NCBI GenBank assembly: GCA_021201535.1 | Contig: JAJQEU010000109.1 | Span: forward strand, 1,998-65,997 | Length of the DNA: 64,000 nucleotides | Direction: 5' to 3' | Source of the DNA: Clostridiales bacterium | GTDB lineage: Bacteria > Bacillota > Clostridia > Lachnospirales > Lachnospiraceae | Shown here: piece after piece, positions 3,821 through 40,398 of the stretch | How positions within the stretch are numbered: the first letter of the stretch is position 1 | Layout of the letters: the number at the start of each line of letters is the position of its first letter | Notes under the pieces: model-generated | Told to the model about the DNA's origin: nothing | The model's database searches: none | Seen by the model: only the letters and a program-made list of their open reading frames with translations | Made by a program: the position numbers and the translations under genes

Positions 3821-4155
3821 TCATCCTCCTCCGGTTCTCCCAGAAACACCACGCTGTAATAAAGCTCCAGGGACTCCAGCAGTTCGGCCTGCCGATCCTG
3901 TATCTGCCTGATTTTCAGAATACTGCCGATCTCATCGTACAGAAGATCTCCCTCGTTTGACGATGTCTCCAGCTGCAGGCTGCCGTCCGCGTCAAACTTC
4001 ATCACCAGTATGCCTCCGACATCCTCCGTATACAGCACGCAAAGAATTTTCAACTCCTCCCGTACCTGTTCCGGAAGCCCGTCAAACTCCGGATTAAGAT
4101 AAAATTGTTTCGTGTATGCGCTGGATGCGCAGAGCACTATTTCTTCATCGTACAT
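3817..4155 (-). CDS. Conserved Lachnospiraceae hypothetical protein (DUF6145-like)
   Basis: LCASSAYTKQFYLNPEF...LYDEIGS pattern; stop overlaps the coaX start. Confidence 0.7.
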   Translation of the reverse strand: MYDEEIVLCASSAYTKQFYLNPEFDGLPEQVREELKILCVLYTEDVGGILVMKFDADGSLQLETSSNEGDLLYDEIGSILKIRQIQDRQAELLESLELYYSVVFLGEPEEDE

Positions 4156-4173
4156 GACTTCCGTCCCCTTGTA

Positions 4174-5151
4174 TCATACATATCCGTACACGCCGCGAAC
4201 GGAAACCTCCCCGGCGGAAACACGTCTCAATCCACTCTCCGTTTCCACGAGCAGTTCGCCCTCCGCATTGATTCCCTTCGCAATACCGGTATAATTCTTT
4301 TTAAAATCCAGTACACGAACCTGTCTGCCGCAGTTCACGAGACAGGCATTGTACTCTTCCAGCAGAGCGCTCAGATCATGCGTCTCCAGAAACCGCGCGT
4401 AATATCTCTCAAACTGTCTCATACACTGTGCAGCCAGTCCGGCCCGACAGACATGGATGCCGGTCTCCAGAAAAACAGATGTCGCCGTCTGCCGTACCTC
4501 CTCCGGAAACTCCTGATTATGAACATTGATGCCCACGCCGATCACGATATGATTGACATAGTCGACCTGGGCACTCATCTCCGTCAGGATACCGCAGATT
4601 TTCCTGCCGGAACAAATGATATCGTTCGGCCATTTTATCTGAACCCCCGATACGCCGCTCATCTCCAGGGCGTCACGGACAGCCATCCCCATCACAAGGG
4701 TCAGCATAGACGCATTTGATGGCTCCAGATCCGGCTTCAGAAGCAGGGACATAAAAATCCCCTCTCCCTTTTTCGAATCCCAGGCTCTGCCGCGCCGCCC
4801 TCTGCCGGCGGTCTGCTGCTCACCGATCACAAGCAGACCCTGGCCGGCTCCCGACTCTGCCTGGCGCTTCGCTTCGTTATTGGTGGAATCCACAGAATCA
4901 TACACCAGAACCGGATGTCCGGCCCACACAGTGTCAAGATATTCGCAGACACGCTCCGCTGTCAGAAAATCCGGTTCTGAACAAAGACGATACCCTCTGT
5001 TGCGCACCGCCTCGATCTCATAGCCCATCTCCTCCAGCTGGCGAATCGCCTTCCAGACGCTTGTCCGGGTCACGCCGAACTTTTCACTGATCTCCTGTCC
5101 GGATAGAAATCCGTCTGCCTCCTGCAGGAGCCGCAAAATTTCTTCTCTCAT
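4174..5151 (-). CDS. birA: Bifunctional biotin repressor / biotin-protein ligase
   Basis: N-terminal HTH (SGQEISEKFGVTRTSVWK), QTAGRGRRGR, KWPND and KICGIL; start placed at MREEIL (5151). Confidence 0.95.
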   Translation of the reverse strand: MREEILRLLQEADGFLSGQEISEKFGVTRTSVWKAIRQLEEMGYEIEAVRNRGYRLCSEPDFLTAERVCEYLDTVWAGHPVLVYDSVDSTNNEAKRQAESGAGQGLLVIGEQQTAGRGRRGRAWDSKKGEGIFMSLLLKPDLEPSNASMLTLVMGMAVRDALEMSGVSGVQIKWPNDIICSGRKICGILTEMSAQVDYVNHIVIGVGINVHNQEFPEEVRQTATSVFLETGIHVCRAGLAAQCMRQFERYYARFLETHDLSALLEEYNACLVNCGRQVRVLDFKKNYTGIAKGINAEGELLVETESGLRRVSAGEVSVRGVYGYV

Positions 5152-27179: not shown

Positions 27180-27309
27180 ATGTTTTTATGGGGTCAGACC
27201 CCGGCAAGAAATTATAAACTTTCTGAATTTTTTATAAAATCGCATCCCTTAAAATCATATTCTTCGATTGTTTTCGTTCATTTTCGCTTCCTGAAATCGA
27301 CGCATTATT

Positions 27310-27464
27310 TGTTGTTTCAACAGTTTTTTGCTTTTGTTTGTAAAATTCAACAAATCCTCTTTGGTAATTTTATGCAATATATCCATTGACTTTCTGTAAA
27401 AAATCAGCTATTTTATAATCACAAATTGTTGAATTAAAAGTTTTAAAATTGTCATTTCAACAAG
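27310..27464. promoter_or_regulatory. Candidate promoter and operators of the hexitol operon
   Basis: TTGACT (27386) with a 17-bp spacer to TATTTT; repeated TGTTG/TTCAACA half-sites at 27310-27322, 27343-27355, 27425-27435 and 27454-27464. Confidence 0.45.
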
Positions 27465-27480
27465 AAAGGGGGTATTTTAT

Positions 27481-28413
27481 ATGATCTACACGGTTACACT
27501 AAACCCGGCGCTTGACAAGACGGTCGAGATTCCGTCCCTGACCATCGATTCCGTAAACCGCATCACTTGCATGCGCACGGATCCGGGCGGAAAGGGAATC
27601 AACGTATCCAAAGTTATCTCAAAGCTGGGCGGAAAAAGCACCGCCGTCGGCATCCTCGGCGGAAACACCGGATATTCAATCGCAGCCGCGGTCAAGGCCA
27701 TGGGGATTAAGACCGGATTCCTGTTTGCAGAGGGCGAAACCCGCACCAACATGAAGATCGTGGATCCGGTTCTGCACACCAATACCGACATCAACGAGCC
27801 AGGCTTCGAGGTTCCGAAAGAAGTTACGGAACAACTTCTTCAGAACGTACTCGGCAAACTGACAGCGAAGGATATCGTAGTCCTCTCCGGCAGCATCCCA
27901 CAGGGATGCCCGAAGACCGTCTACCGCAAATGGATCAGCGCATGCGGCAAAAAGGGCGCGCGCGTCATCCTGGACGCAGACGGAGAACAGTTCGCGGCAG
28001 GGCTTGAGGCGGGACCTTATCTGATCAAGCCGAACCATCACGAACTCTCCGCGCTGATGGGCAGAGATTTGAACACACCGGTAGAATTGGGACGCGCGGC
28101 GCACGAGCTTCAAAAGCGGTACGGCATCCGGAAAATTGTCGTCTCAATGGGCAGTGCAGGCGCACTGTATGTATCGGCAGGAGAAATGATTCACGCGGAA
28201 GGTCTGCGGGTACCGGTCGGAAGCACGGTCGGCGCCGGGGACAGCGTGGTGGCGGCTCTGGCCCTGGCGGAAGAAAAAGACATGGTTCTCGCGGAGGCAG
28301 CCCGTCTCTCCACCGCGACGGGCGCGGCAAACGTGATGTGCAACGGCTCGCAGGCCGCAGAATACGAAACGGTTAAAGAACTTCTGCCGAAAGTGATCCT
28401 TCATCACTTTTGA
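27481..28413 (+). CDS. 1-phosphofructokinase-family hexose-phosphate kinase (FruK/LacC type PfkB)
   Basis: TVTLNPALD, GGKGINVS, LIKPN..EL, VSMG..GA and STVGAGDS. Confidence 0.9.
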   Translation: MIYTVTLNPALDKTVEIPSLTIDSVNRITCMRTDPGGKGINVSKVISKLGGKSTAVGILGGNTGYSIAAAVKAMGIKTGFLFAEGETRTNMKIVDPVLHTNTDINEPGFEVPKEVTEQLLQNVLGKLTAKDIVVLSGSIPQGCPKTVYRKWISACGKKGARVILDADGEQFAAGLEAGPYLIKPNHHELSALMGRDLNTPVELGRAAHELQKRYGIRKIVVSMGSAGALYVSAGEMIHAEGLRVPVGSTVGAGDSVVAALALAEEKDMVLAEAARLSTATGAANVMCNGSQAAEYETVKELLPKVILHHF

Positions 28414-28462
28414 ACTTGTAAAACAAAAACAGATTGATTATGATAGAAAGGAGTTTTGTATA

Positions 28463-29734
28463 ATGAAAGCAAAAGGTGTACGTCTTCACGGCGCCAATGA
28501 TCTCAGACTGGAGGAATTTGAGCTCCCGGAGATCACAGACGATGAAATCCTGGTAAAGGTCGTCTCCGACAGCATCTGCATGTCCACCTACAAGTGCGCG
28601 ATTCTGGGAACGGAACACAAACGCGTACATGAAGATGTGGCCGAACATCCCGCGATTATGGGACATGAGTTTGCGGGCGATATCGTGAAGGTCGGCAAAA
28701 ATCATCAGGAAAAATTCAAACCCGGCATGAAATTTACACTCCAGCCGGCACTGAATTACAAGGGAACCATGTGGAGTCCGGGATACTCCTACGAGTTTTT
28801 CGGAGGAAACACCACATACTGCGTCATCCCCTCAGAGGTCATGGAGCTCGGATGTCTACTGGAATACAGAGGAAAGGCTTACTACGAGGCATCCCTGGCG
28901 GAACCGATGTCCTGCAGTATCGGCGCCTTTCACGCAGCCTACCACACAAAGATGGGTGTTTACAGCCACCATATGGGCATACGGGAAGGCGGTAAACTCG
29001 CTATCATGGCGGGAGCCGGTCCGATGGGTCTTGGCGCCCTGACCTATGCGCTGCACTGTGATATACGGCCTTCTCTGGTCGTTGTAACTGACCTGAATCA
29101 GGAACGTCTCGATCGCGCCTCGCAGTTGTTCCCGCCTGAAGAAATCGCAAAGGAAGGCATCCGGCTTCTCTTTGTCAACACCGGAAGCACCTCGGATCCC
29201 GTACAGAATCTGCTGGCTATCACCGACGGCACCGGATATGACGATGTGCTCTGTTATGCTCCGGTTGCCTCTGTCATCACCCAGTCAAGTGCCATTCTCG
29301 GCCGTGACGGCTGCCTGAACTTTTTTGCCGGACCGACGGACAAAAAATTCAGTGCAGAGATGAACTTTTATGATGTCCACTACAATTCTACACACGTAAT
29401 GGGTACCACCGGAGGCAATACGGAGGATATGATTGAATCCCTGCAGCTGACCGAACAGGGTCGCATCAATCCCGCGGTCATGGTAACTCACATCGGCGGT
29501 CTTGACGCCGCAGCGGACACCACGCTGAATCTGCCGAAGATTCCGGGCGGCAAGAAACTGATCTACACGCATCTGGCCATGCCGCTGACCGCGCTGACGG
29601 ACCTGAGAAAAACCGGCGAAGCACAGCAGGATGAGCGAATGATTGCTCTGGCGGACATCGTGGACGCGCATATGGGACTGTGGAGCCCTGAAGCGGAGGA
29701 ATATCTGCTTCAAAACTTTATCACTGAAGAATAA
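28463..29734 (+). CDS. Zn-dependent sugar-phosphate dehydrogenase, SorE/YggP family
   Basis: SDSICMSTYK, GHEFAG, ASLAEP, AGPMG, DGCLNFFAGP, VHYNSTHV and IPGGKKLIY match recalled E. coli YggP / sorbose-1-P reductase motifs. Confidence 0.85.
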   Translation: MKAKGVRLHGANDLRLEEFELPEITDDEILVKVVSDSICMSTYKCAILGTEHKRVHEDVAEHPAIMGHEFAGDIVKVGKNHQEKFKPGMKFTLQPALNYKGTMWSPGYSYEFFGGNTTYCVIPSEVMELGCLLEYRGKAYYEASLAEPMSCSIGAFHAAYHTKMGVYSHHMGIREGGKLAIMAGAGPMGLGALTYALHCDIRPSLVVVTDLNQERLDRASQLFPPEEIAKEGIRLLFVNTGSTSDPVQNLLAITDGTGYDDVLCYAPVASVITQSSAILGRDGCLNFFAGPTDKKFSAEMNFYDVHYNSTHVMGTTGGNTEDMIESLQLTEQGRINPAVMVTHIGGLDAAADTTLNLPKIPGGKKLIYTHLAMPLTALTDLRKTGEAQQDERMIALADIVDAHMGLWSPEAEEYLLQNFITEE

Positions 29735-29787
29735 CTGTCAGGATTTCCTGTTCGCGGAATCCTGACACGAACAGGAGGATAAACTAT

Positions 29788-30549
29788 ATGGATACTATGG
29801 AAGCTCGCAGAAATGCGATTGCCCAACTAATTGATGACAACGGAACAATAAGTTTTTCACAGCTGAAGGAAGCCTTTCCGGACGTTTCGGAAATGACGCT
29901 GCGCACAGATCTGAAATGTCTGGACGAGGCAAGGCGGATTCTTCGCGTACATGGGGGAGCCAAATCCGTACAGGTTGTAATCGGAACGGACGATCTGCTG
30001 AAACGTAAGTCCATCCGCAATATTTCCCAAAAGCAGATGATTGCCGAAAAAGCAGTGACATTGCTTCGTCCGGACACTACCATTTTTCTGGATTCCGGCA
30101 GCACTACGACCACACTGGCCCGGCAGTTTCCGGATCAGTCCTATCTGATCTACACGACCGGCCTGAGTTGCGCAACAGAGCTTTGCGGCCTGTCCGCCCC
30201 CACGGTCATGCTCCCCGGAGGAATGCTGAACCGCTACAGCCAGAGCGTATTCGGTTTTTCCGCGATAAAAGAACTGGAAAGGGTCAATTTTGACCAGGCC
30301 TTTCTCGGAATTACCGGTTACCATGCATCGTCCGGTTTTTCCTGCGGCATCAGTGACGAAGCGATTCTGAAGCAGACGGCAATCCGCCAGTCGGAACAGG
30401 TCATTGCGCTTATGGATTCCTCAAAGGTTGATATCAAATGCAGCTTCTCCATCTGCGGTCTGACAGATGTGGACATCATTGTCTCCGATGGGAAACTGCC
30501 GCAGGAATTTCTTTCGGAATGTGAGAGATACGGCGTTCAGGTGATATAG
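29788..30549 (+). CDS. DeoR/GlpR family transcriptional regulator
   Basis: VSEMTLRTDL HTH, RVHGGA and IFLDSGSTT. Confidence 0.93.
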   Translation: MDTMEARRNAIAQLIDDNGTISFSQLKEAFPDVSEMTLRTDLKCLDEARRILRVHGGAKSVQVVIGTDDLLKRKSIRNISQKQMIAEKAVTLLRPDTTIFLDSGSTTTTLARQFPDQSYLIYTTGLSCATELCGLSAPTVMLPGGMLNRYSQSVFGFSAIKELERVNFDQAFLGITGYHASSGFSCGISDEAILKQTAIRQSEQVIALMDSSKVDIKCSFSICGLTDVDIIVSDGKLPQEFLSECERYGVQVI

Positions 30550-30658
30550 TCCGCAGGCAGGTATACCGGGAAATACTGACAGTTTCCTTTGCTGCAGCAG
30601 ATTAAAAGTCTTCGGTTTGGGCAATTCTCTATAGTAGTTGTGTAAGGGAGAATTACTC

Positions 30659-32533
30659 ATGAAAACAAAAGTACAGAGTTTTGGTAAATTCTTATCGGCA
30701 ATGGTAATGCCGAATATCGGCGCGCTGATCGCATTCGGCCTTCTCGCCGCGCTGTTTACGGACAACGGCTGGATCCCCAACGAGGGATTTAACAGCATCG
30801 TCAGTCCACTGCTGACCTACCTGATCCCGATCCTGATCGCCTCCACCGGCGGCAAGCTGGTCGCAGGCGAACGCGGACGGATCGTCGGAGCCATCGCGGT
30901 GGTCGGAGCCATCATGAGCGACACCAGCATCACGATGCTGATGGCCGCCATGGTCATGGGACCGCTGGCAGGCTTCTGCATGAAAAAATTTGACCAGTTT
31001 ATGGAAGGGCGGATGCCGGCAGGCTTCGAAATGCTGATCAACAACTTTTCCGCGGGCATCATCGGCATGCTGCTCGCCATCGTCGGTTACCTCGTCATCG
31101 GTCCGATCATGTCGGCCGTGCTGGTCGTGCTTTCGGGCGGCGTCAATATCCTGGTAAACAACGGGCTGCTCCCGCTTGTCGCGATTTTTATCGAACCGGC
31201 GAAGGTACTGTTTTTGAACAACGCGATTAACCACGGCATCTTCACACCGCTCGCGACAGCGCAGGCGGCGGAGACAGGCAAGTCCATCATGTACATGCTT
31301 GAGCCAAACCCCGGCCCCGGACTCGGCGTCCTGCTCGCCTACATGTTCTTCTGTAAAGATAAAAAGACAAAGGATTCGGCTCCGGGCGCTGTCATCATCC
31401 ACCTGCTCGGCGGTATCCATGAAATATATTTCCCATATATTCTGATGAATCCATTGGTGATCATTGCACCGATTGCGGGTAATATCGTAGCAATTTTCTG
31501 GTTCAACCTGACCGGCTGCGGACTGGTAGGACCGGCATCCCCCGGTTCCATCATCCTTTACCTGATGATGACGCCGGCATCCGACATGTTGAAAGTAATT
31601 ATCGGCGTGGCGATTGCAACAGCGATCTCCTTCCTCATCGCCTCTCCCATTGTCCGGAGAGCCGGCGGCAAGAGTCTCGAGGAAGCACAGCAGGAGGTAG
31701 CGTCACGAAAAGCAGAAGCAAAGGGGCTTACTGCAGAAGTCACTTCCGATGTGACAGTGAAATCTTCTGAAGTCAGAAAAATTATCTTTGCCTGCGATGC
31801 CGGCATGGGGTCCTCCGCGATGGGCGCGACAAAATTCCGCAACCGGATCAAAGCCCTGCGGCCGGATATTTCCGTAACAAATACATCCGTAGATACCATC
31901 CCGCCGGACTGCGATATCGCTGTTGTACAGACAACGCTGGCGGCCAGAGCGCAGAAATCAGCACCGCAGGCGGAGCTGATCACGATCGGAAACTTCCTGG
32001 CGGACCCGGCACTGGATGATCTGTACGAGCGGCTGACCTCGGGAGATAAAACGGTCATTGAAAGTAAAACAGAAAATACAGCTGAACGCGCCGCATCAGA
32101 AGAACCGGCAAAACCTCAGGTTATTATCGCGGACGGCATTAAGCTCGGTCAGAAACCCGTTTCCAAAGAGGACGCCATCCGGGCAGCCGGTGAACTTCTG
32201 GAAAAACTCGGCTATGTCGACCACAGCTATGTCGACGCTATGCAGGAGCGCGAAAAACTCACTACCACCTACATGGGCATGGGCGTTGCGATCCCCCACG
32301 GCACATCCGAAGCGAAGGGGCAGGTAAAAAAGACCGGCATCGTCTTCCTGCAGTATCCCGATGGCGTTGACTTCGGCGAGGAGAAAGCACAGCTCGTCTT
32401 CGGTATCGCAGGCATCGGCGATGAACATTTGGATCTTCTGGCAAAAATCTGCACCATGCTGGAGGATGAGGATCGTCTGGAAACACTGAAGACTACAGGC
32501 GACGCAGACTGGGTATTGGAGCAATTGACGTGA
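30659..32533 (+). CDS. mtlA: Mannitol-family PTS EIICBA
   Basis: VQSFGKFLSAMVMPNIGA, NNAINHGIF, GGIHEIYFP, EIIB FACDAGMGSSAMGA and EIIA GVAIPHGT; substrate not proven. Confidence 0.85.
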   Translation: MKTKVQSFGKFLSAMVMPNIGALIAFGLLAALFTDNGWIPNEGFNSIVSPLLTYLIPILIASTGGKLVAGERGRIVGAIAVVGAIMSDTSITMLMAAMVMGPLAGFCMKKFDQFMEGRMPAGFEMLINNFSAGIIGMLLAIVGYLVIGPIMSAVLVVLSGGVNILVNNGLLPLVAIFIEPAKVLFLNNAINHGIFTPLATAQAAETGKSIMYMLEPNPGPGLGVLLAYMFFCKDKKTKDSAPGAVIIHLLGGIHEIYFPYILMNPLVIIAPIAGNIVAIFWFNLTGCGLVGPASPGSIILYLMMTPASDMLKVIIGVAIATAISFLIASPIVRRAGGKSLEEAQQEVASRKAEAKGLTAEVTSDVTVKSSEVRKIIFACDAGMGSSAMGATKFRNRIKALRPDISVTNTSVDTIPPDCDIAVVQTTLAARAQKSAPQAELITIGNFLADPALDDLYERLTSGDKTVIESKTENTAERAASEEPAKPQVIIADGIKLGQKPVSKEDAIRAAGELLEKLGYVDHSYVDAMQEREKLTTTYMGMGVAIPHGTSEAKGQVKKTGIVFLQYPDGVDFGEEKAQLVFGIAGIGDEHLDLLAKICTMLEDEDRLETLKTTGDADWVLEQLT

Positions 32534-32669
32534 TGCATCCGCTATACCACACAAATACGCCTGTAGATTTCGGACAAAGCCGAAGAAGAACGACAGAAGG
32601 AAGCCTTTCACATTGCAACAATTTAACACTACTATATAACACTACCATAAATAACAGGAGGAATTTACT

Positions 32670-32933
32670 ATGAAGACATTTGAGTACACAATCAAAGATA
32701 ACGAAGGTATCCACGCACGCCCGGCCGGACTGCTCGTAAAGGAGATTGCAAACTACGAATCAGCAGTTTCCATCACATCCAACGCCACCGGCAAAAAAGT
32801 AAAAGCCAGCAGCGTCATGATGCTGATGACCCTCGGCGTGAAGAAGGGCATGACCATCACAGTGACCGTAGAGGGAGCCGACGAAGACAACGCCGCGGCA
32901 GGCATTCAGGCATTCCTGAAAGCAAACCTGTAA
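32670..32933 (+). CDS. ptsH: Phosphocarrier protein HPr
   Basis: GIHARPA (His15); 87 aa. Confidence 0.92.
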   Translation: MKTFEYTIKDNEGIHARPAGLLVKEIANYESAVSITSNATGKKVKASSVMMLMTLGVKKGMTITVTVEGADEDNAAAGIQAFLKANL

Positions 32934-33075
32934 TCAAAGGTGCGATTCACAGTGTATTGGTTTTTGAAAACAGAGTCGTCGTGCCTGCACGTAAGAAACT
33001 GTTTTCAGACGCCAATACAACCTGTGAAGAGGGGGACTGTGAAGCGTAACCCTCATTTTTGAAAGGAGAAGCCAC

Positions 33076-34689
33076 ATGGAACAATACACAGGCAAATCCA
33101 TTTTTAAGAAAATTGCGATTGGCAGGGTTTACCTCTATCAAAAAAAAGAAAACTCCGTGCGCCGGGAGCATGTAGAAGACGTTGAGCAGGAAATCAAACG
33201 CTTTGAGGCGGCAAAAACCGTCGCCCTCGGCCAGCTGGAACGCATCTACCAGAAAGCCTTAAAGGAAGTCGGCGAGGACAACGCCGCCGTGTTCGAAGTT
33301 CACATGATGATGATGGACGACGAAGGCTTTGTTGACTCCATCTGCCACATTATCCGGGAACAGAAGGTGAATGCGGAGTATGCCGTGGCGACAACCGGCG
33401 ACAATTTTTCCGCCATGTTTGCTCAGATGGACGACGATTACATGAGAGCCCGCGCGGCGGACGTCAAGGACATCTCCGAGCGTCTGGTCTCCGTACTGTG
33501 CGGCAGGGAAACCGACATGGGCAGCCTGGACGAGCCGGTCGTTCTGATGGCGGATGATCTGGCGCCCAGCGAGACCGTCCAACTGGACAAAGCAAAAATT
33601 CTCGCCTTCGTGACCCGCCATGGCTCCTCAAATTCCCACACAGCCATTCTGGCCCGCACCATGAACATCCCGGCGATCATCGGCATCGACGTGCAGGATG
33701 AATGGAAGGGAAAAACCGTTATCGTGGACGGATATACCGGAAATGTGACCATCGATCCGGATCCGGAATACCTGAAGACCATGACAGAAAAAATGCAGGC
33801 GGATGTGAAAAAGCAGGAGCTGTTAAAAGAACTGAAGGGAAAAGAAACCGTCACGAAAAACGGACGAAAAATCCATCTTTACGCCAACATCGGCGGCGTA
33901 AAAGATGTCGCCTCCGTCCTGCAAAACGACGGCGAGGGCATCGGCCTGTTCCGGAGTGAATTTCTCTATCTCGAATCCGACGATTTCCCCACGGAAGAGG
34001 AGCAGTTCCAGGCATACAAGACCGTAGCCGAAAACATGGCCGGCAAAAAGGTCATCGTGCGGACACTGGATATCGGCGCGGACAAACAGGTCGATTATTT
34101 CGGTCTGGCAAAAGAGGACAATCCGGCGATGGGATATCGCGCTATCCGCATCTGTCTGGATCAGCCGGAAATCTTCCGCACGCAGCTACGGGCGCTCCTT
34201 CGGGCCAGCGCTTACGGAAACATCTCCATCATGTTCCCCATGATCATCTCCGTCCAGGAGGTGCTGGAGTGTAAACGAATCCTCGCAGAAGTGAAAGCTG
34301 AATTGAAAGCAGAGGGTATCGCGTACAAGGACGTGGAAGTGGGCATCATGATTGAAACGCCGGCCTCCGTCTGGATCAGCGAAGAACTCGGACGCGAAGT
34401 CGATTTCTTCAGCATCGGCACCAACGACCTGACCCAGTACACGCTGGCAATCGACCGGCAGAATGCGAAGCTGGACAACATCAACGATCCGCACCATCCG
34501 GCCGTCCTGCGGTCCATTCAGACCGTCATCGAAAACGGTCACAAGGGCGGCGCCTGGGTCGGCATCTGCGGCGAACTCGGCGCGGATACCACACTGACCG
34601 AAACCTTTGTGAATATGGGAATCGATGAGCTGTCCGTATCGCCGTCGTTTATCCTGCCGGTGCGGGACGCCGTGAGGAAGCTGGATTAA
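33076..34689 (+). CDS. ptsI: PTS enzyme I
   Basis: GSSNSHTAILAR, GIGLFRSE, RTLDIGADK, FSIGTNDL and GICGE. Confidence 0.96.
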   Translation: MEQYTGKSIFKKIAIGRVYLYQKKENSVRREHVEDVEQEIKRFEAAKTVALGQLERIYQKALKEVGEDNAAVFEVHMMMMDDEGFVDSICHIIREQKVNAEYAVATTGDNFSAMFAQMDDDYMRARAADVKDISERLVSVLCGRETDMGSLDEPVVLMADDLAPSETVQLDKAKILAFVTRHGSSNSHTAILARTMNIPAIIGIDVQDEWKGKTVIVDGYTGNVTIDPDPEYLKTMTEKMQADVKKQELLKELKGKETVTKNGRKIHLYANIGGVKDVASVLQNDGEGIGLFRSEFLYLESDDFPTEEEQFQAYKTVAENMAGKKVIVRTLDIGADKQVDYFGLAKEDNPAMGYRAIRICLDQPEIFRTQLRALLRASAYGNISIMFPMIISVQEVLECKRILAEVKAELKAEGIAYKDVEVGIMIETPASVWISEELGREVDFFSIGTNDLTQYTLAIDRQNAKLDNINDPHHPAVLRSIQTVIENGHKGGAWVGICGELGADTTLTETFVNMGIDELSVSPSFILPVRDAVRKLD

Positions 34690-34755
34690 AACAGCAAACA
34701 TCTCAAAACACGCTTCCGCCAGCTGATTCGCAGCTGCCGGATTCGACGCACACAT

Positions 34756-34781
34756 AAATCCCCGGCTTAAGCCGGGGATTT
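34756..34781. repeat. Perfect 26-bp palindrome (CCCCGGCT family, copy 1)
   Basis: AAATCCCCGGCTTAAGCCGGGGATTT. Confidence 0.8.
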
Positions 34782-34783
34782 GT

Positions 34784-34888
34784 AGCAAGCATGTGAATAA
34801 CATTCTCAAGAAGACACATATCATAGCCGCGCTTCTTCATGAGCTTATAGTCCTTTTTGAAAGCAGTCTGATATTTAATCGTCCGTAT
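34784..34888 (-). pseudogene. YafQ-family toxin remnant (start ATG to ATA, truncated after ~35 codons)
   Basis: Manual translation (I)RTIKYQTAFKKDYKLMKKRGYDMCLLENVIHMLA overlapping the upstream stop; similarity ends at the palindrome. Confidence 0.75.
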
Positions 34889-36029
34889 CTAAATCCTCCA
34901 TTAACTCATACACAGATGAAAAACCACGGCTTAACCCTACGCCGTTTCTGGCGTCTTCAATGGCTTTCACCGTCTCAGCATTCGGCAGAGGATTTTTTGC
35001 TTTTTCTTTGCCCTTTTCATGCCATTCATTCAAAACAGCTTCCACTTGTGCTATTAACTGCTCTTTGTTCGGGATATAGGAAACATATCTGGAAGCAAAG
35101 ATTGTATTTGACAGACCACCGAGAGCATATTCAGCAGCTATGCTATCTTTGTCTGTACAAAGGATAATCCCGATTGGCGGGTTATCATGTTCATCGTTTA
35201 CTTCTGCGGTGTAATAATTCAGATACATATTGAGTTGTCCAACTGCTTCCGGCGTAAGTTTGGCTGTTTTCAGTTCAAACAGCACATATGCCCGGAGAAT
35301 TTTGTTGTAGAAAACCATATCCACATAATAATGTACATTGTTAAGCGTTATGCGCTGCTGCGTACCCACAAACATAAAGCCACGCCCTAATTCTAAGAGG
35401 AATTTCTCTATTTGCGCCACAAGTGCTTTCTCAAGATTGCTTTCAAGCATAGGCTTATTCTCCGGCACACCCAGAAATTCAAATACATAAGGGTCTTTAA
35501 TCATGTCCAGAGGTGTAGCCATTTCAATTCCTTTTTTTGCAAGAGCAAGTACCGTTTCTCTATTTGTTTTTCCCTCTGACAGTAATAGCCGTTCATAGAG
35601 CGATGTGGAAATCTGGCGTTTCAGTTCCCGTATTGACCATCCAGAGTTAACAGCTTCCTTTTCATAGAAACTGCGTTTATCCACGTCGGAAATAGATAAA
35701 AGTTCGCAATAATGCGACCAACTCAATTTGCCAGACACTGTCTGGCAAATTGGATAAGCAAGATAAAACGCCCTCATATTCTGTAAATTGGAGCGTGAAA
35801 ACCCTTTCCCAAACTCCTGCGTCAAATCTTTCGAAAGCTGTTTTAAAGTTTGTCTCCCGTAACCTGCCCGTTCCCTGTTTTCCTGTTCATACTCTACAAT
35901 AATTCTGCCCACATTCCAGTAGGTAGAAAGAAGTTCGGTATTTACCTGTACCGCCACGTTCTGACGTGCACTTATCAGTAATTCCCTGATTTCGTTTATC
36001 ATGGAATCATTATATGTTAAGTCGTTCAT
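34875..36029 (-). CDS. YhcG/DUF1016 PD-(D/E)XK nuclease-domain protein with a fused DinJ/RelB-like C-terminal tail
   Basis: YWNVGR.IV, GKGFS.SNL..MR.FY, LSWSHY, KDPYVFEFL, FLLELGRGF, DMVFYN..L..YV.FELK, GQLNMY and PPIGIILC; extra 37-aa tail PNAETVKAIEDARNG...ELMEDL. Confidence 0.88.
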   Translation of the reverse strand: MNDLTYNDSMINEIRELLISARQNVAVQVNTELLSTYWNVGRIIVEYEQENRERAGYGRQTLKQLSKDLTQEFGKGFSRSNLQNMRAFYLAYPICQTVSGKLSWSHYCELLSISDVDKRSFYEKEAVNSGWSIRELKRQISTSLYERLLLSEGKTNRETVLALAKKGIEMATPLDMIKDPYVFEFLGVPENKPMLESNLEKALVAQIEKFLLELGRGFMFVGTQQRITLNNVHYYVDMVFYNKILRAYVLFELKTAKLTPEAVGQLNMYLNYYTAEVNDEHDNPPIGIILCTDKDSIAAEYALGGLSNTIFASRYVSYIPNKEQLIAQVEAVLNEWHEKGKEKAKNPLPNAETVKAIEDARNGVGLSRGFSSVYELMEDLDTDD

Positions 36030-36170
36030 TTTTACCGCCCTCTTTAATGTGTGATGCAATCAAAGTATAACACAAAAGCTACTCTATTTCCATAGTATCA
36101 AATTTATAAAATTCTTATATGAAAGAAGCTCCGGCAAACTTTTTATAATAGTCGCCCCTTATAAAAATGG

Positions 36171-36821
36171 TCAGACTATTTCGCCATTTTCCATTTCATA
36201 TACCTGATCGCAGAGAATGCTTATATCCTCCGCGCTGTGGCTGGCAATCAGAAGCAGCTTATCCTGCGTTCTCAGTGACAGAAGCAACTTACGAACCTCC
36301 GCCACACCATGTTTATCCAAACCATTCATCGGTTCGTCCAAGACTAATACCGACGGCTGTTCCATAATCGCCTGTGCCAGGCCAAGACGCTGCCTCATCT
36401 CCAGACTGTATTTTTTCACCGGCATTTTCGATTCCGGATCCAATCCGGTCTGTCTCATTGCCTTTTTCATATCTTCTTTTGTTATTTTGTTTTTGATGCC
36501 TGCCAGCACAACCAGATTCTTTAACCCACTATAATAGGGAATGAATCCGGGTGTTTCAATAATAATGCCTGCATCCGGCAGATAATCTACATCCTTACCT
36601 ATGATTTTTCCGTCCGCTTTCACATATCCTTCCGTGGGTTTTACAAAACCGCAGATGCAGCGCATAAGCATAGTTTTCCCGCATCCGTTATTTCCCACCA
36701 GCCCATAAATGTGCCCGCTTTCCAATCGCAGGGAAATATTATTTAAAATTTCTTTTTTACTCAGTGTCAGAGAGACTCTGTTTACTTCGATCACTTTATT
36801 CACCCCGTTTATTTCAAACAT
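36171..36821 (-). CDS. ABC transporter ATP-binding subunit
   Basis: Walker A GNNGCGKT, Walker B LVLDEP and H-loop IASH; signature reads YSLEMRQR. Confidence 0.92.
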   Translation of the reverse strand: MFEINGVNKVIEVNRVSLTLSKKEILNNISLRLESGHIYGLVGNNGCGKTMLMRCICGFVKPTEGYVKADGKIIGKDVDYLPDAGIIIETPGFIPYYSGLKNLVVLAGIKNKITKEDMKKAMRQTGLDPESKMPVKKYSLEMRQRLGLAQAIMEQPSVLVLDEPMNGLDKHGVAEVRKLLLSLRTQDKLLLIASHSAEDISILCDQVYEMENGEIV

Positions 36822-36945
36822 CTCCGCAGCTTTTCCATCCTCACGTTTCTTTTTTGCGTCTTAAAAACATTCGACCTGTGCGGTTGGACGCTCTGTGGCG
36901 CGTCCAACCCTGCTCACACATTCGCAAAACCCGCGTTTCTTCCGG

Positions 36946-37797
36946 CTACAGCACCCGATATCTCCGCGATACAATCAGGCTGACCGCTATGAGCCCGATA
37001 CTTCCCGCCGCCAGATAAACATAAGACCCCCACATCGGGAAAACCATCTCGCTCAGATACTCTTCATAATGCACCCATGGGACGATGTGTGTGATGGGAA
37101 AAAGCCACATTCCCTTCATCTTCACCTCCATAAAGACCACTCCCATAATAAGCAAAAACGCATTGATCAGCACTCCCGCATACTTTTGGTTGCAAAGCGA
37201 AGCCGCTAAAAGTATCATAGCAATTACAATAAAATGAAGCAGCAGCAGAAAAAATGAATGAACCAGCGCTTCTGGAAGCGACATCTGCTGATACAAATTG
37301 CCCGGCACAAGTTCAACAACATAATCTCCTGTCCGATCCGGATAAGCGGATGTAAAATGTGTCATCGCATCTGAAAATCCCATCTGCCATGTTCCGCATC
37401 CCATCATCATGAGGCAGGTGATCCAAAAGAGAACCCCAACCACAAAAAGACTCGCCTTCACTGCAAAAAGCACCTGTCCCGCAATCCAGATTTTTTTCTC
37501 ACAGCGTATCTGATAAAACAGATGTATTCCGCTTTTTTGCGGAAAATCAGCCAGAAGAACTAAAAACAAAAGCGGCAGTACCAACAGCACCACCCCTGAA
37601 TTGCTCAGTGCAATAAATCCCTCCAAAACCGACACCGGTTCTCCCATAAGATCGGCGCATTCTGCCAGCGGGGCAACAACCTGTACATGAATAAACACTG
37701 CCATTACTGCCAGTATAATCAATCTGCTGTTCCTTAACCACTGCCGGAATTCCGCAGATGATATGCGCCATATCATGCAGCCCGCTGTATTACCCAT
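36946..37797 (-). CDS. Multi-TM ABC-2-type permease-like protein
   Basis: About six hydrophobic segments; directly upstream of the ATPase; start overlaps the previous stop. Confidence 0.7.
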   Translation of the reverse strand: MGNTAGCMIWRISSAEFRQWLRNSRLIILAVMAVFIHVQVVAPLAECADLMGEPVSVLEGFIALSNSGVVLLVLPLLFLVLLADFPQKSGIHLFYQIRCEKKIWIAGQVLFAVKASLFVVGVLFWITCLMMMGCGTWQMGFSDAMTHFTSAYPDRTGDYVVELVPGNLYQQMSLPEALVHSFFLLLLHFIVIAMILLAASLCNQKYAGVLINAFLLIMGVVFMEVKMKGMWLFPITHIVPWVHYEEYLSEMVFPMWGSYVYLAAGSIGLIAVSLIVSRRYRVL

Positions 37798-38534
37798 TAC
37801 ACCCTCTCCTCTGCACTTCCATATAAAACGCCACAAACAGGCCGGCATATACGGTCAGCATAAAAAACATCGACACATACCAGTACCTGTTCCCGGAAAT
37901 ATTCACAACAGAATCCATAAAAAAGGCTGAAATCAGCTCTGTCCGGTCTCCCGCACCTGAAAAGCTTTCATTCAGTAATCTCTGTAATACCTGTATGTAA
38001 ATATAATTAAGAAGAAACGGCAGGCAGAGCAGCATATATTTATCCCGGATTAAAATGGCCGCGCCCAAACCGAACACACACGCAAACATGCCGTACAGAA
38101 AAATCCCCAGAAGCCTCTTCACCACAAATATCGTTATTCCGGCGCCGCCCCCGTAAAGCTGAAGCCAGATCGTCTGTTCATCCTGGGGAAATGCAGAAAA
38201 CCCCGGAAATACCGACATCATCACAAGTCCAAAAATGCCATATCCCGCCGTAAAACCAATCCCCCCTGCCAGAGCGCCCCCTGTCAGTTTAGATATACTG
38301 TATCTGAAATTCCCCATACGGATCAGCTGAAATCCTGTCTCCCCGCTCTGCCGCTCCGAAGATAACGTTACCAGATATCCAAAACTCAAAAGCAAAGGAA
38401 GCAGCAGCGGAAGCCAACCGCTTAACACCTGCATCCACATCACCAGATCGCTTTTCCCGATTTCCGCTGCCGCCTCCTTTTCCGTTTGCAGCATCAGCGC
38501 AAAAATCGTAATACTCTTTCCGGTATAATCATAA
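37790..38534 (-). pseudogene. ABC permease-like gene, 3' fragment (split by the IS)
   Basis: Hydrophobic ORF whose native frame resumes at ..DYTGKSITIF just outside the IS inverted repeat. Confidence 0.75.
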
Positions 38535-40398
38535 TATAGGCTCTCGGAATCTTGAGCCTCCCGGCCGAATTTCAGCGGCCGACTGAACATTGAAAAGTAA
38601 ATATTATCCAAAATGCAACGGTTATAGCGCAGTTTAGTAAAAAAGAGCGCAGAGTAGTAGACCATATTCAAAACATGGCTTATAATGGTATTGCTTATTC
38701 AGATAAGCGGCCTGCTAAAAGAGATCTCTGAGGCGTGAAGTCTTTGGCGGGTCCCAGGCATCAAGATGTTGGCACATCATGATGCAGAACAGGCGGCAGT
38801 ACCACATCTTAGTTGAACGGTATCTGCCGTCTTCTATTTTATAGTCTACTTTCTCACGTTTATTACAGCGTTCTGCGGAGGTTCTGGCATTATATTCCAT
38901 TTTCCATTCTTTGCTGCTGCGCGGCGGGTTATTGAATAACCTTGGGTTGTCTTTCATGGCAAGATGAACCGTCCTGCCGTATTTCGCATCCGAGCAGGGA
39001 TTTTCACAGGTACATGTAATTTTTCCACCTGCAAAGCTGATCTTCGGGCATTTGAATTTGGTCCTGCCTTTATCGACTTCCGTGCCGTCGCGTCGCATGG
39101 TATATCCTTCGCGGCACACGGGGACGCCATCATTGTTGATTGTGAAATCATCTTTATAAACTGGCGGCCGCCCGCCTTTTCCATTGAGGTCAATAAATGG
39201 CGTGATTCCCTGTTCACGGCAGTATGTATAAACAGGCATGGCATCATGCGCGGAGTCAAGAAGCAGCTTTTTGACGACTGCTTCGGGGAGAAACTGTTTC
39301 ATGGAGAACCAGTTATAAAGGAACCCATGGGAATCATGCCTGGAAGCGGGTCCCAGAAAAGGAAATACAGGAAGGTCATTCTCTGAATCCGAAGCGGTCA
39401 GCATATACAGGTCATAACCAAAGTAGTAGCAGTTCCGAAGGGAATCCCAGCCGATGTTGCAGTCAGGCTGGCTGTAGGTGCGGTTGCATTTACAGTTATG
39501 GATTCCTTTTTCGAGGCAGTCACAGGTACGTTTTTTTCGCTCTCTGGCGGCGGTACGGATGGGGGTCCCATCGCCTGCGAGGGAAAGAGAAAAAAGATTA
39601 ATCAGGCCATCGGCTGCAGAGCGTTTGAGAAAGAGAGTGCTGAAAATCTCGTAGAGCATCCGGCAGGGTTCCATATCATGGGGAGGATCCTGCTCAAAGC
39701 GCTCAAAGAGTTCTTTGACAGTTACTTTCTCAACAGGGGCAGCTTTTTCTCCATTTTTAGATGGCTTTTTGGGTTTTTCTTTCGGCGGATGGACAGAATC
39801 TGAAATATTATTTTTATCAGAGAGCCAGAGCCGCCTTTGAAAGTCGTAAAAGGTAGCGGTGCCCGGTGTATCGCCAACGAGAAAACCGGAAATGATGGCA
39901 TGAAGGTGGTTTTCCTTCAGGTCAGCAGCCCACTTGGTATAGGAGACAATACCGAATTCCACGGAAACAAGGATGGATCGAAGCATATCGGAAGGGAGCC
40001 TTGGCTCAGGGCCGAAGACAGAATACCGGTCCCGCATGATGGAATCGACCTCGGAGAGGTCAAGATTCCAGAACTTTTCCATAATCTCCCAGGTGGAAGA
40101 AGAAAGGGAATTTGGGGCATCAGGATAATATTTACGAAGCTGTGCCAGGACACGATCCTGGTAGGCGGCATGGCCGCCGGAATTAACAGGTTTCATATGT
40201 GCACCTCCAATCAAGCGTGAAATATCTTCTTGATTGAAGGGCGCGCCTCGCAGCCTCTGGCGAGGCAAAGACAGCAAGGCGCGCCGCACATTTTACCCCA
40301 TTTGTCAATAGTTTTTTTTGAAAAAAGTGGGGGGAATTAAAAAAAAGGGGTCTTAAAAAGCCATGTTTTATGCAGGGTTGAGATTCCGAGAGTCTATA
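38535..40398 (-). mobile_element. Insertion sequence (~1.86 kb), DDE type, family uncertain
   Basis: Terminal inverted repeats TATAG[G/A]CTCTCGGAATCT (17/18 match) flanked by TAA (38532-34 and 40399-401). An alternative boundary 38539-40394 with a TA duplication also fits. Confidence 0.88.
38715..40196 (-). CDS. IS transposase (DDE, IS4/IS5/IS1182-like)
   Basis: LAGDGTP, YYFGY, LLLDSAHDA and YNARTSAERCNKREK; Cys-rich insert; GGAGG RBS before MKPVN. Confidence 0.85.
   Translation of the reverse strand: MKPVNSGGHAAYQDRVLAQLRKYYPDAPNSLSSSTWEIMEKFWNLDLSEVDSIMRDRYSVFGPEPRLPSDMLRSILVSVEFGIVSYTKWAADLKENHLHAIISGFLVGDTPGTATFYDFQRRLWLSDKNNISDSVHPPKEKPKKPSKNGEKAAPVEKVTVKELFERFEQDPPHDMEPCRMLYEIFSTLFLKRSAADGLINLFSLSLAGDGTPIRTAARERKKRTCDCLEKGIHNCKCNRTYSQPDCNIGWDSLRNCYYFGYDLYMLTASDSENDLPVFPFLGPASRHDSHGFLYNWFSMKQFLPEAVVKKLLLDSAHDAMPVYTYCREQGITPFIDLNGKGGRPPVYKDDFTINNDGVPVCREGYTMRRDGTEVDKGRTKFKCPKISFAGGKITCTCENPCSDAKYGRTVHLAMKDNPRLFNNPPRSSKEWKMEYNARTSAERCNKREKVDYKIEDGRYRSTKMWYCRLFCIMMCQHLDAWDPPKTSRLRDLF

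What the first reader, a model, noticed from the sequence alone, without database searches (positions are those of the whole stretch)
34703..34985. Fossil DinJ-YafQ module: antitoxin tail fused to YhcG, toxin decapitated
Seen: the YhcG ORF continues past its usual end into PNAETVKAIEDARNGVGLSRGFSSVYELMEDLDTDD, a DinJ/RelB-like C-terminus. In another frame, overlapping the stop, lies (I)RTIKYQTAFKKDYKLMKKRGYDMCLLENVIHMLA, a YafQ-like N-terminus. One G-to-A change would explain both ATG to ATA and DADD to DTDD. YafQ similarity stops at the 26-bp palindrome. This is not in the ORF track. Known: the DinJ C-terminus is the toxin-neutralising part. Inference: a deletion fused the genes and the toxin was silenced; the chimera might still neutralise YafQ toxins in trans.
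Basis: partly seen in the sequence, partly recalled or inferred. Interest (0 to 1): 0.66.

Follow-up and report, generated by a model that had tools for sequence, protein, structure and literature searches.

The report
Dead toxin-antitoxin remnant fused to nuclease
A broken DinJ-YafQ toxin-antitoxin gene pair lies next to a horizontally acquired YhcG nuclease gene whose reading frame now runs on into the surviving end of the antitoxin gene; it is most likely an evolutionary leftover, not a working system.

Summary
On the minus strand, a YhcG/DUF1016 PD-(D/E)XK nuclease gene (ATG at 36029) does not stop where its 84-91% identical relatives stop. It reads through three codons (KAK) into 39 codons that are the C-terminal toxin-binding region of a RelB/DinJ antitoxin (70% identical to DinJ of Pusillibacter faecalis plasmid pMM59_02, 82% to a 90-aa metagenomic DinJ). 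The next gene overlaps the stop codon by the 14 nt seen in intact dinJ-yafQ modules. It is the first 35 (at most 43) codons of a YafQ toxin (Pfam YafQ_toxin 33.5 bits, profile positions 1-41 of 88). It has ATA where relatives have ATG. It lacks the whole C-terminal half, where every published active-site residue lies. The DinJ DNA-binding half is absent. The fusion occurs only in this strain (the window plus three near-identical metagenome contigs). Two other YhcG relatives carry unrelated read-through tails of similar length. The best reading is a decayed, horizontally acquired TA module with an accidental in-frame read-through. How the genes were joined is unresolved, and neutralisation of toxins in trans is untested and unlikely. 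This is ordinary biology, read well by the first stage. Interest is low to moderate.

The parts
35004..36029 (-). yhcG core: 342 codons from the ATG, a DUF1016_N + YhcG_C PD-(D/E)XK nuclease. It is collinear with 342-aa relatives up to their stop position.
   Evidence: Pfam E 1e-49 and 2e-56. PADLOC PDC-S02 E 4e-137. 84-91% identical relatives end here. The conserved D, E and K columns are intact.
36064..36092 (-). Promoter-like site (TGGAAA, 17 nt, TG-TATACT) upstream of yhcG. DNA similarity to yhcG relatives begins at about 36077-36094.
   Evidence: This is a consensus match only.
34995..35003 (-). Three junction codons (AAA GCA AAA = KAK) of uncertain origin. The first AAA sits where relatives have TAA or TAG.
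   Evidence: DNA alignment with three yhcG relatives.
34875..34994 (-). dinJ' : the last 39 codons plus the stop of a RelB/DinJ antitoxin (NPLPNAET...DLDTDD), the toxin-binding region, in frame with yhcG. The RHH DNA-binding half is missing.
   Evidence: P0122 reads GNPIPNAET where the window reads KNPLPNAET. No DinJ N-terminal match exists anywhere in the window.
34784..34888 (-). yafQ' : codons 1-35 of a YafQ-family toxin, with ATA in place of ATG and TAG immediately upstream in the same frame. It overlaps dinJ' by 14 nt. Weak similarity may continue to 34754.
34756..34781 (.). Perfect 26-nt palindrome AAATCCCCGGCTT/AAGCCGGGGATTT, a strong hairpin on both strands. It lies 66 nt after the ptsI stop and probably acts as a shared transcript-end hairpin. 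It is unique in the window.
   Evidence: The simple terminator scan did not call it because the T-run is short.
34769..34770 (.). Synteny breakpoint with the closest relative genome (L016, PtsI 97% aa). Similarity runs from 27306 to 34769 and stops at the palindrome centre.
34703..34840 (-). 45-aa ORF (MKKRGYDM...) called as a gene in public assemblies. It is an internal ATG within the yafQ' frame that runs out into the spacer, and is most likely not a real gene.
33076..34689 (+). ptsI (PTS enzyme I), a convergent host gene on the native, higher-GC side.

Best explanation
A horizontally acquired type II dinJ-yafQ toxin-antitoxin module has decayed to a piece of about 210 nt. It has lost the dinJ promoter and RHH DNA-binding half on one side and the catalytic half of yafQ on the other. 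What survives is the dinJ 3' end (39 codons) and the yafQ 5' end (35-43 codons, with no ATG). A horizontally acquired yhcG nuclease gene now abuts the dinJ fragment. This yhcG has no stop codon where its relatives stop, and it happens to be in the dinJ frame. It is therefore translated into a YhcG protein carrying a 42-residue C-terminal extension: KAK plus the DinJ toxin-binding region. The palindrome downstream probably ends both this transcript and the convergent ptsI transcript. Shown here: the homologies, the frames, the junction positions, the rarity of the fusion, and the loss of the toxin's catalytic half. Inferred: that the fusion is an accident without selected function, and that the joining event was an illegitimate deletion or recombination.
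For: The tail is the DinJ C-terminus. The remnant is the YafQ N-terminus, with the 14-nt overlap also found in the three intact comparators. The intact comparator DinJ and YafQ are homologous to solved DinJ-YafQ complexes 4Q2U, 4ML0 and 9LEW. The YafQ active-site residues H50, H63, D67, R83, H87 and F91 (PMC7584586) all lie beyond the remnant. Of 114 close YhcG relatives that could be scored, 112 end 2-11 residues after the conserved Trp, while the window has 48 residues there. Two relatives (P0027, P0061) carry 44-45-residue read-through tails of unrelated sequence, so accidental stop-loss extension recurs in this family. P0134 is another truncated DinJ fused to a fragment of an unrelated gene, a nitroreductase. 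None of the 101 tail homologues is YhcG-sized. The fusion is seen only in three >=99.9% identical contigs from one study. GC is 0.38-0.46 in the remnant and yhcG against 0.54 in ptsI. The nearest relative genome lacks the whole segment. No other DinJ or YafQ is in the window.
Against: The tail shows no decay. It matches 27 of 30 defined consensus positions of its family and includes the extreme C-terminus (consensus, which is partly circular). In E. coli DinJ, the last nine residues are needed for YafQ binding (PMC12301738). The same module occurs naturally behind several different N-terminal domains and as stand-alone 44-70-aa proteins, so it can plausibly act on its own. Neither fragment carries a frameshift or a stop, so the event is recent and selection cannot be assessed. 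Only 64 kb of the genome was available, so a partner toxin elsewhere cannot be excluded.
Confidence: 0.82

Rival explanations
1. The chimera is a working orphan antitoxin, an 'anti-addiction' factor. The DinJ tail displayed on YhcG binds YafQ toxins of incoming plasmids or elements and protects the host from post-segregational killing or from a YafQ-based abortive response.
For: The complete toxin-binding region is retained and near-consensus. The intact relatives of the fossil sit on small plasmids of gut Clostridia. The module occurs on its own and with varied N-domains. The anti-addiction principle has been demonstrated for ccd (PMC2654758).
Against: The tail is only 62-70% identical to the plasmid DinJ tails, and non-cognate cross-talk is reported as rare (PMC12301738). 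The fusion occurs in a single strain. An in-frame junction is expected by chance one time in three. Unrelated read-through tails exist in relatives. No partner toxin is in the window.
Confidence: 0.07
2. The tail alters YhcG itself. An antitoxin C-terminus without its toxin is expected to be disordered and protease-prone, and so could act as a degradation tag or autoinhibitory arm on a candidate defence nuclease.
For: YhcG matches the PADLOC candidate defence family PDC-S02. Type II antitoxins are labile relative to their toxins (PMC2654758). That free antitoxin C-termini are disordered and are cut by Lon or Clp is my own background knowledge, not taken from a paper read here. The AF2 model gives the tail low confidence, which is weak evidence.
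Against: There is no evidence of selection. The effect could equally be neutral or mildly harmful. The AF2 model is poor throughout (mean pLDDT 45.7), so it says nothing specific about the tail.
Confidence: 0.07
3. The resemblance is due to chance, or the tail is a normal YhcG feature, or the junction is an assembly artefact.
For: Neither Pfam nor NCBIfam scores the isolated tail. The tail alone finds no DinJ in the PDB.
Against: E-values of 3e-9 to 3e-14 in very large databases, with all listed hits inside annotated DinJ genes. Two adjacent fragments keep the gene order, the frames and the 14-nt overlap of intact modules. Close YhcG relatives lack the tail. The identical junction appears in three independent assemblies.
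Confidence: 0.01

Closest known systems
DinJ-YafQ type II toxin-antitoxin modules (E. coli dinJ-yafQ, PDB 4Q2U/4ML0; closest intact copies on Pusillibacter faecalis pMM59_02 and a Flavonifractor plautii plasmid)
   Same: Same gene order and the same 14-nt antitoxin/toxin overlap. The tail is 62-70% identical to the C-terminal 37 residues of the plasmid DinJ proteins, and 82% to the metagenomic DinJ P0122. The remnant is 65-73% identical to the N-terminus of the plasmid YafQ proteins.
   Different: There is no RHH DNA-binding half and no promoter of its own. The toxin has no ATG and lacks residues from about 45 to 90, which include all the active-site residues. The antitoxin fragment is translated as part of another protein.
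YhcG / DUF1016 PD-(D/E)XK nucleases (PADLOC candidate defence family PDC-S02), common on ICEs and other mobile elements
   Same: Both Pfam domains are present at full length, and the protein is 84-91% identical to many gut Clostridia copies. Its GC content is foreign to the flanks, and relatives sit in varied genomic contexts, including an ICE-like one (PMC4316617).
   Different: It carries a 42-residue C-terminal extension of antitoxin origin in place of the usual 2-11 residues after the conserved Trp.
Decayed chromosomal TA loci and the anti-addiction model (chromosomal ccd of Erwinia chrysanthemi against F-plasmid ccd)
   Same: A chromosomal copy related to plasmid-borne modules. The antitoxin part outlives the toxin, as expected once a toxin has been inactivated (PMC2654758).
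   Different: Here only the toxin-binding peptide survives, as a fusion, and no protective activity has been shown.
Domain-shuffled antitoxins carrying the same 'PNxET...GIGLSRGFSSV.ELMEDLNADD' module
   Same: The identical module is found behind RHH (34 of 100), MazE/PrlF, Phd/YefM and HTH domains, in tandem copies, and alone.
   Different: In those proteins the partner domain is a DNA-binding antitoxin domain or is absent. None of them is a YhcG nuclease.

Membership tests
RelB/DinJ antitoxin (PF04221) | N-terminal ribbon-helix-helix DNA-binding and dimerisation domain | tested here: not met
   The tail starts at about DinJ residue 51. tblastn with two full DinJ proteins finds only residues 54-90 anywhere in the window.
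RelB/DinJ antitoxin (PF04221) | C-terminal toxin-binding region homologous to DinJ | tested here: met
   70% identity at E 3e-9 to a plasmid DinJ. 82% identity at E 3e-14 to P0122, which itself matches PF04221 over profile positions 4-81 of 82. The link to the solved DinJ structures 4Q2U and 9LEW is indirect, through the full-length comparator. The isolated tail does not score on Pfam or the PDB.
RelB/DinJ antitoxin (PF04221) | Binds and neutralises a cognate toxin | not testable with these tools
   Needs co-expression and pull-down experiments.
YafQ toxin (PF15738) | Profile match above Pfam's gathering score | tested here: met
   33.5 bits against a 30-bit cut-off, but on profile positions 1-41 of 88 only.
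YafQ toxin (PF15738) | Active-site residues (E. coli H50, H63, D67, R83, H87, F91; C-terminal HS(E/D)LF motif) | tested here: not met
   The alignment with three intact YafQ proteins ends at residue 35-44. The RECH...PDW...HSDLF half is absent. The residue list is from PMC7584586.
YafQ toxin (PF15738) | Translatable ORF with a start codon | tested here: not met
   TAG then ATA CGG at the start position. The first ATG is codon 17. Caveat: L096 has ATT at the same position with an otherwise intact ORF.
YhcG/DUF1016 PD-(D/E)XK nuclease | DUF1016_N and YhcG_C domains with the conserved D...E.K core | tested here: met
   PF17761 E 1e-49 and PF06250 E 2e-56. The invariant D237, E252 and K254 columns (384-aa numbering) are present.
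Functional type II TA system | Active toxin plus an autoregulating antitoxin in one operon | tested here: not met
   The toxin is truncated, the antitoxin DNA-binding domain is missing, and there is no separate promoter region.

The most novel reading that the evidence does not exclude
The YhcG-DinJ(C) chimera could be a selected orphan toxin-binding protein. A candidate defence nuclease would display an antitoxin peptide that captures YafQ toxins of invading plasmids or phage-triggered TA systems, acting as an anti-addiction or anti-TA factor. Alternatively, YafQ binding to the tail could regulate the nuclease. The evidence does not exclude this. The tail is complete and near-consensus, the intact relatives are plasmid-borne, and the same peptide exists as stand-alone small proteins in gene neighbourhoods that look mobile or counter-defence-like.
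Probability: 0.06. Interest if true: 0.6.

Novelty: new member of a known kind. Interest (0 to 1): 0.25.

Why it matters
As it stands, this is a clean example of how TA modules decay: the toxin's catalytic half goes, and the antitoxin's toxin-binding end persists. It also shows how a stop-less neighbouring gene can pick up a ready-made protein-binding peptide. For annotation there are three points. The 45-aa ORF is spurious. The YhcG gene carries a foreign 42-residue tail. Neither TA fragment should be called a TA system. If the tail did bind YafQ toxins, this would be a natural case of an antitoxin peptide recruited onto a candidate defence nuclease. Nothing here argues that it does.

Tried and rejected
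- Word-indexed protein searches with the 42-aa tail and the 45-aa remnant found nothing or only the window's own ORF, because the queries were too short. Plasmid tblastn and the exhaustive phmmer search were used instead.
- Pfam and NCBIfam on the isolated tail gave no hit. The PDB search with the tail alone gave only insignificant TRAP matches.
- Search for a precursor arrangement yhcG-dinJ-yafQ. None of the close yhcG relatives examined and none of 80 intact yafQ metagenome loci shows it. Those 80 loci are all close to the Pusillibacter type, so the sample is narrow.
- Search for an empty site. Only L016 shares the ptsI spacer, and its contig ends 1.2 kb further on. The ABC genes that flank yhcG in the window are not next to ptsI in any of the 80 relatives.
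- The 'YRECH' string in the long tail of YhcG relative P0027 looked toxin-like. It is read-through over the antisense strand of an unrelated gene, with no significant TA match.
- The AlphaFold2 model of the fusion was too poor to use (mean pLDDT 45.7; the alignment holds only sequences 83-91% identical to the query). No fold search was run on it.
- Public-run look-ups found no run holding the locus (shares <=0.14), so there is no expression evidence.
- Rfam found nothing credible at the palindrome.
- Possible continuation of yafQ' through the palindrome to the ptsI spacer. Only a gapped 'L.P.IY' match was found. It is not significant on its own, and that stretch is shared with L016, which has no YafQ match. 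This is left open.

Full report
WHAT IS THERE. On the minus strand an ORF runs from 36059 to 34875. Its likely start is the ATG at 36029, which follows an AAGAGGG Shine-Dalgarno sequence and a promoter-like site, giving 384 aa. Pfam places DUF1016_N (E 1e-49) and the YhcG PD-(D/E)XK domain (E 2e-56) on the first ~325 residues of that 384-aa protein and nothing on the last ~50. PADLOC assigns the protein to the candidate defence family PDC-S02 (E 4e-137). The match ends at residue 342.

THE TAIL IS NOT A YhcG FEATURE. The 120 best relatives are 83-91% identical over 84-89% of the 394-aa query, and most are about 342 aa long. The longer ones mostly have spurious N-terminal extensions. I counted residues after the conserved Trp (W336). 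Of 114 relatives that could be scored, 112 have 2-11 residues there. The window has 48. At the DNA level, yhcG similarity ends at about 34990-35019. Where relatives read AAA GAA TAA or TAG, the window reads AAA GAA AAA GCA AAA and continues. Two relatives, P0027 and P0061, also lack the usual stop and carry 44-45-residue tails of unrelated sequence. I checked P0027: its tail is read-through over the antisense strand of a neighbouring gene and has no significant TA match. Accidental stop-loss extension therefore recurs in this gene family.

THE TAIL IS THE C-TERMINUS OF A DinJ ANTITOXIN. tblastn of the 42 residues against 72,556 plasmids hit 224 records. All listed hits lie at the 3' end of genes annotated RelB/DinJ, nearly all followed by a YafQ or RelE toxin gene. 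The best is Pusillibacter faecalis pMM59_02 (70% over 37 residues, E 3e-9), followed by a Flavonifractor plautii plasmid (62%). An exhaustive phmmer search of 1.84e9 representative proteins gave 101 hits at E<=1e-3. The best is P0122, a 90-aa RHH DinJ that is 82% identical (E 3e-14) and reads ...GNPIPNAET... where the window reads ...KNPLPNAET.... DinJ-derived sequence therefore starts at the Asn codon at 34994-34992. Only the three KAK codons (35003-34995) remain of unclear origin. The full-length Pusillibacter DinJ is homologous to the solved DinJ structures 9LEW, 4Q2U and 4ML0, and the PNxxT..AI motif aligns. [quoted passage not shown] The isolated tail is too short to score on Pfam, NCBIfam or the PDB, so the link to the solved structures is indirect. 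The RHH half of DinJ is nowhere in the window.

THE NEXT FRAME HOLDS THE HEAD OF A YafQ TOXIN. In the intact comparators, the Pusillibacter and Flavonifractor plasmids and L096, dinJ and yafQ overlap by 14 nt. The two plasmids read ATGCTGACGATTAA there. The window has ATACGGACGATTAA at the same place. From there it reads IRTIKYQTAFKKDYKLMKKRGYDMCLLENVIHMLA, which is 65-73% identical to the plasmid toxins. It scores above the gathering threshold on PF15738, but only on profile positions 1-41 of 88. Firm similarity ends at codon 35 (34786-34784). A gapped match (L.P.IY) could extend it to 34754. The rest of the toxin is missing, including the conserved DH, RECH, PD and HSDLF positions seen in the intact comparators. 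Those positions are the published active site: H50, H63, D67, R83, H87 and F91 in E. coli numbering, and deletion of the C-terminal motif abolishes activity (PMC7584586). The toxin is therefore dead because of truncation.

The codon geometry is right. The G of ATG is also the first base of the Ala codon in the antitoxin frame, so a single G-to-A change gives both ATA and Thr. But the closest DinJ relative (L096) reads ...DSDD, with ATT at the toxin start position. TAG lies just upstream there as well, and the 90-codon YafQ ORF is otherwise complete. A non-ATG codon at this position is therefore not proof of silencing.

The 45-aa ORF called as a gene in public assemblies (34703-34840) is just an internal ATG of this dead frame.

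THE 3' BOUNDARY AND THE PALINDROME. A perfect 26-nt palindrome occupies 34756-34781. It is unique in the window and folds into a 13-bp hairpin on either strand. It begins 2 nt after the last firm YafQ codon and lies 66 nt after the ptsI stop. Rfam finds nothing credible there. The simple terminator scan did not call it because the T-run is short. Its role as a shared transcript-end hairpin is therefore an inference.

The nearest genome in the species collection is a Lachnospiraceae MAG (L016, PtsI 97% aa). It is collinear with the window from 27306 to 34769 and diverges exactly at the palindrome centre. An aldo/keto-reductase-like gene follows, with no YhcG, DinJ or YafQ match. The left arm is thus shared with L016. 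The right arm and everything beyond it are not. I cannot tell which of the two states is ancestral.

ORIGIN. GC content is 0.54 in ptsI, 0.38 in yafQ', 0.46 in dinJ' and 0.41 in yhcG. Close yhcG relatives sit in unrelated contexts, including an ICE-like one with RepA_N and T4SS coupling-protein genes. DUF1016 genes are known passengers of mobile elements (PMC4316617). Intact relatives of the TA fragment are on small plasmids. Both pieces are therefore foreign to this chromosome.

How they were joined is unresolved. No yhcG relative examined has dinJ-yafQ downstream. None of 80 intact yafQ loci has yhcG within 3 kb, though that sample is narrow. No dinJ 5' half lies upstream of yhcG.

The fusion itself is real. 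The same junction appears in three independent assemblies. It is confined to one strain-level lineage (>=99.9% identity, no variation in the fossil).

DOES IT DO ANYTHING? Most likely not (confidence 0.82). An in-frame junction is expected one time in three. Unrelated read-through tails occur in relatives. Another truncated DinJ fused to a nitroreductase fragment exists (P0134). The fusion is not conserved anywhere else, and no partner toxin is in the window.

Some points run against a confident 'junk' verdict. The tail is complete and matches 27 of 30 defined family consensus positions. It scores above the family median on a family HMM, but that family was selected using this tail as query, so the score is partly circular. 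The module is also clearly autonomous in nature. Among 100 homologues, 34 have the RelB RHH domain, single cases have MazE/PrlF, Phd/YefM or HTH domains, some carry the module in tandem, and about 60 are short proteins with no other Pfam domain.

Two minor rivals therefore remain. One is a trans-acting anti-addiction or orphan-antitoxin role (PMC2654758 for the principle; 0.07). The other is an effect of a labile antitoxin tail on YhcG stability or activity (0.07). Cross-talk between non-cognate pairs is reported as rare (PMC12301738), and the tail is only 62-70% identical to the plasmid DinJ tails. The AF2 model was too poor to say anything, and no expression data could be found.

COMPARISON AND VERDICT. 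The locus fails the membership tests for a functional DinJ (no RHH domain), a functional YafQ (no active site, no start codon) and a TA system. It passes only as homologous fragments of each. The yhcG part is a regular family member with an unusual tail. This is a new instance of a known phenomenon, TA decay with a gene-fusion by-product, and not a new kind of system. Its evolutionary scenario is reasonable but only partly demonstrable, and its functional suggestion remains speculation.

Noticed in passing
L097:1501-1671; L098:810-980; L100:191-361 (homologues of window 34878-34994): The DinJ-type toxin-binding module also occurs as stand-alone 44-70-aa proteins with no DNA-binding domain and no toxin gene downstream. 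P0207 (56 aa) lies directly after an SSB gene. P0158 (56 aa) lies between a NAD-synthase-like gene and a NADAR gene. These neighbourhoods look like those of mobile elements or counter-defence genes, so these may be orphan anti-toxin (anti-TA) peptides. This is a more interesting lead than the fossil itself.
   Followed up: partly
L096:295-567: The locus encoding the closest DinJ relative (P0122) has a complete 90-codon YafQ ORF. At the canonical start position it has ATT, preceded by TAG. This is either a weak non-AUG start for the toxin or a very recent inactivation.
   Followed up: partly
window 34756-34781 vs L016:7668-7690: Collinearity with the nearest relative genome stops exactly at the centre of the perfect 26-nt palindrome. 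Only the left arm is shared. It is unexplained whether the second arm was created at the rearrangement, for example by a template switch, or whether the hairpin was itself the breakpoint.
   Followed up: partly
window 35724-35752: A 29-nt perfect palindrome (14-nt arms, CAATTTGCCAGACA/TGTCTGGCAAATTG) lies inside the yhcG coding sequence, where it encodes ..PICQTVSGKL... It is also present in the relatives L006 and L013. Other relatives carry a different sequence block here (..YQIQQTVSVKL..), which suggests a mosaic gene.
   Followed up: no
P0134 (111 aa), P0027 and P0061 (380-381 aa): Other accidental-looking fusions exist. One is a nitroreductase N-terminal fragment joined to DinJ residues from about 38 to 90. 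The other two are YhcG relatives with 44-45-residue read-through tails of unrelated sequence.
   Followed up: partly
L006:2716-3641 and 4001-5029: One metagenome contig carries two yhcG copies in opposite orientation next to each other. One of them is split into two ORFs (186 aa + 114 aa).
   Followed up: no
window 36171-40289: Upstream of yhcG lie an ABC ATPase gene and several ORFs with no Pfam hit on record in the public gene calls. The 300-aa ORF next to the ATPase looks like a membrane protein from its sequence. GC is 0.44-0.47. This cluster is not adjacent to ptsI in any of the 80 related genomes, so the non-native segment may extend well beyond yhcG.
   Followed up: partly
window 27306-34689: The native side appears to be a sugar-alcohol PTS cluster: zinc-type alcohol dehydrogenase, DeoR regulator, EIICBA, HPr and PtsI. 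It is conserved at 83-93% nt identity in MAG U_127035.
   Followed up: no
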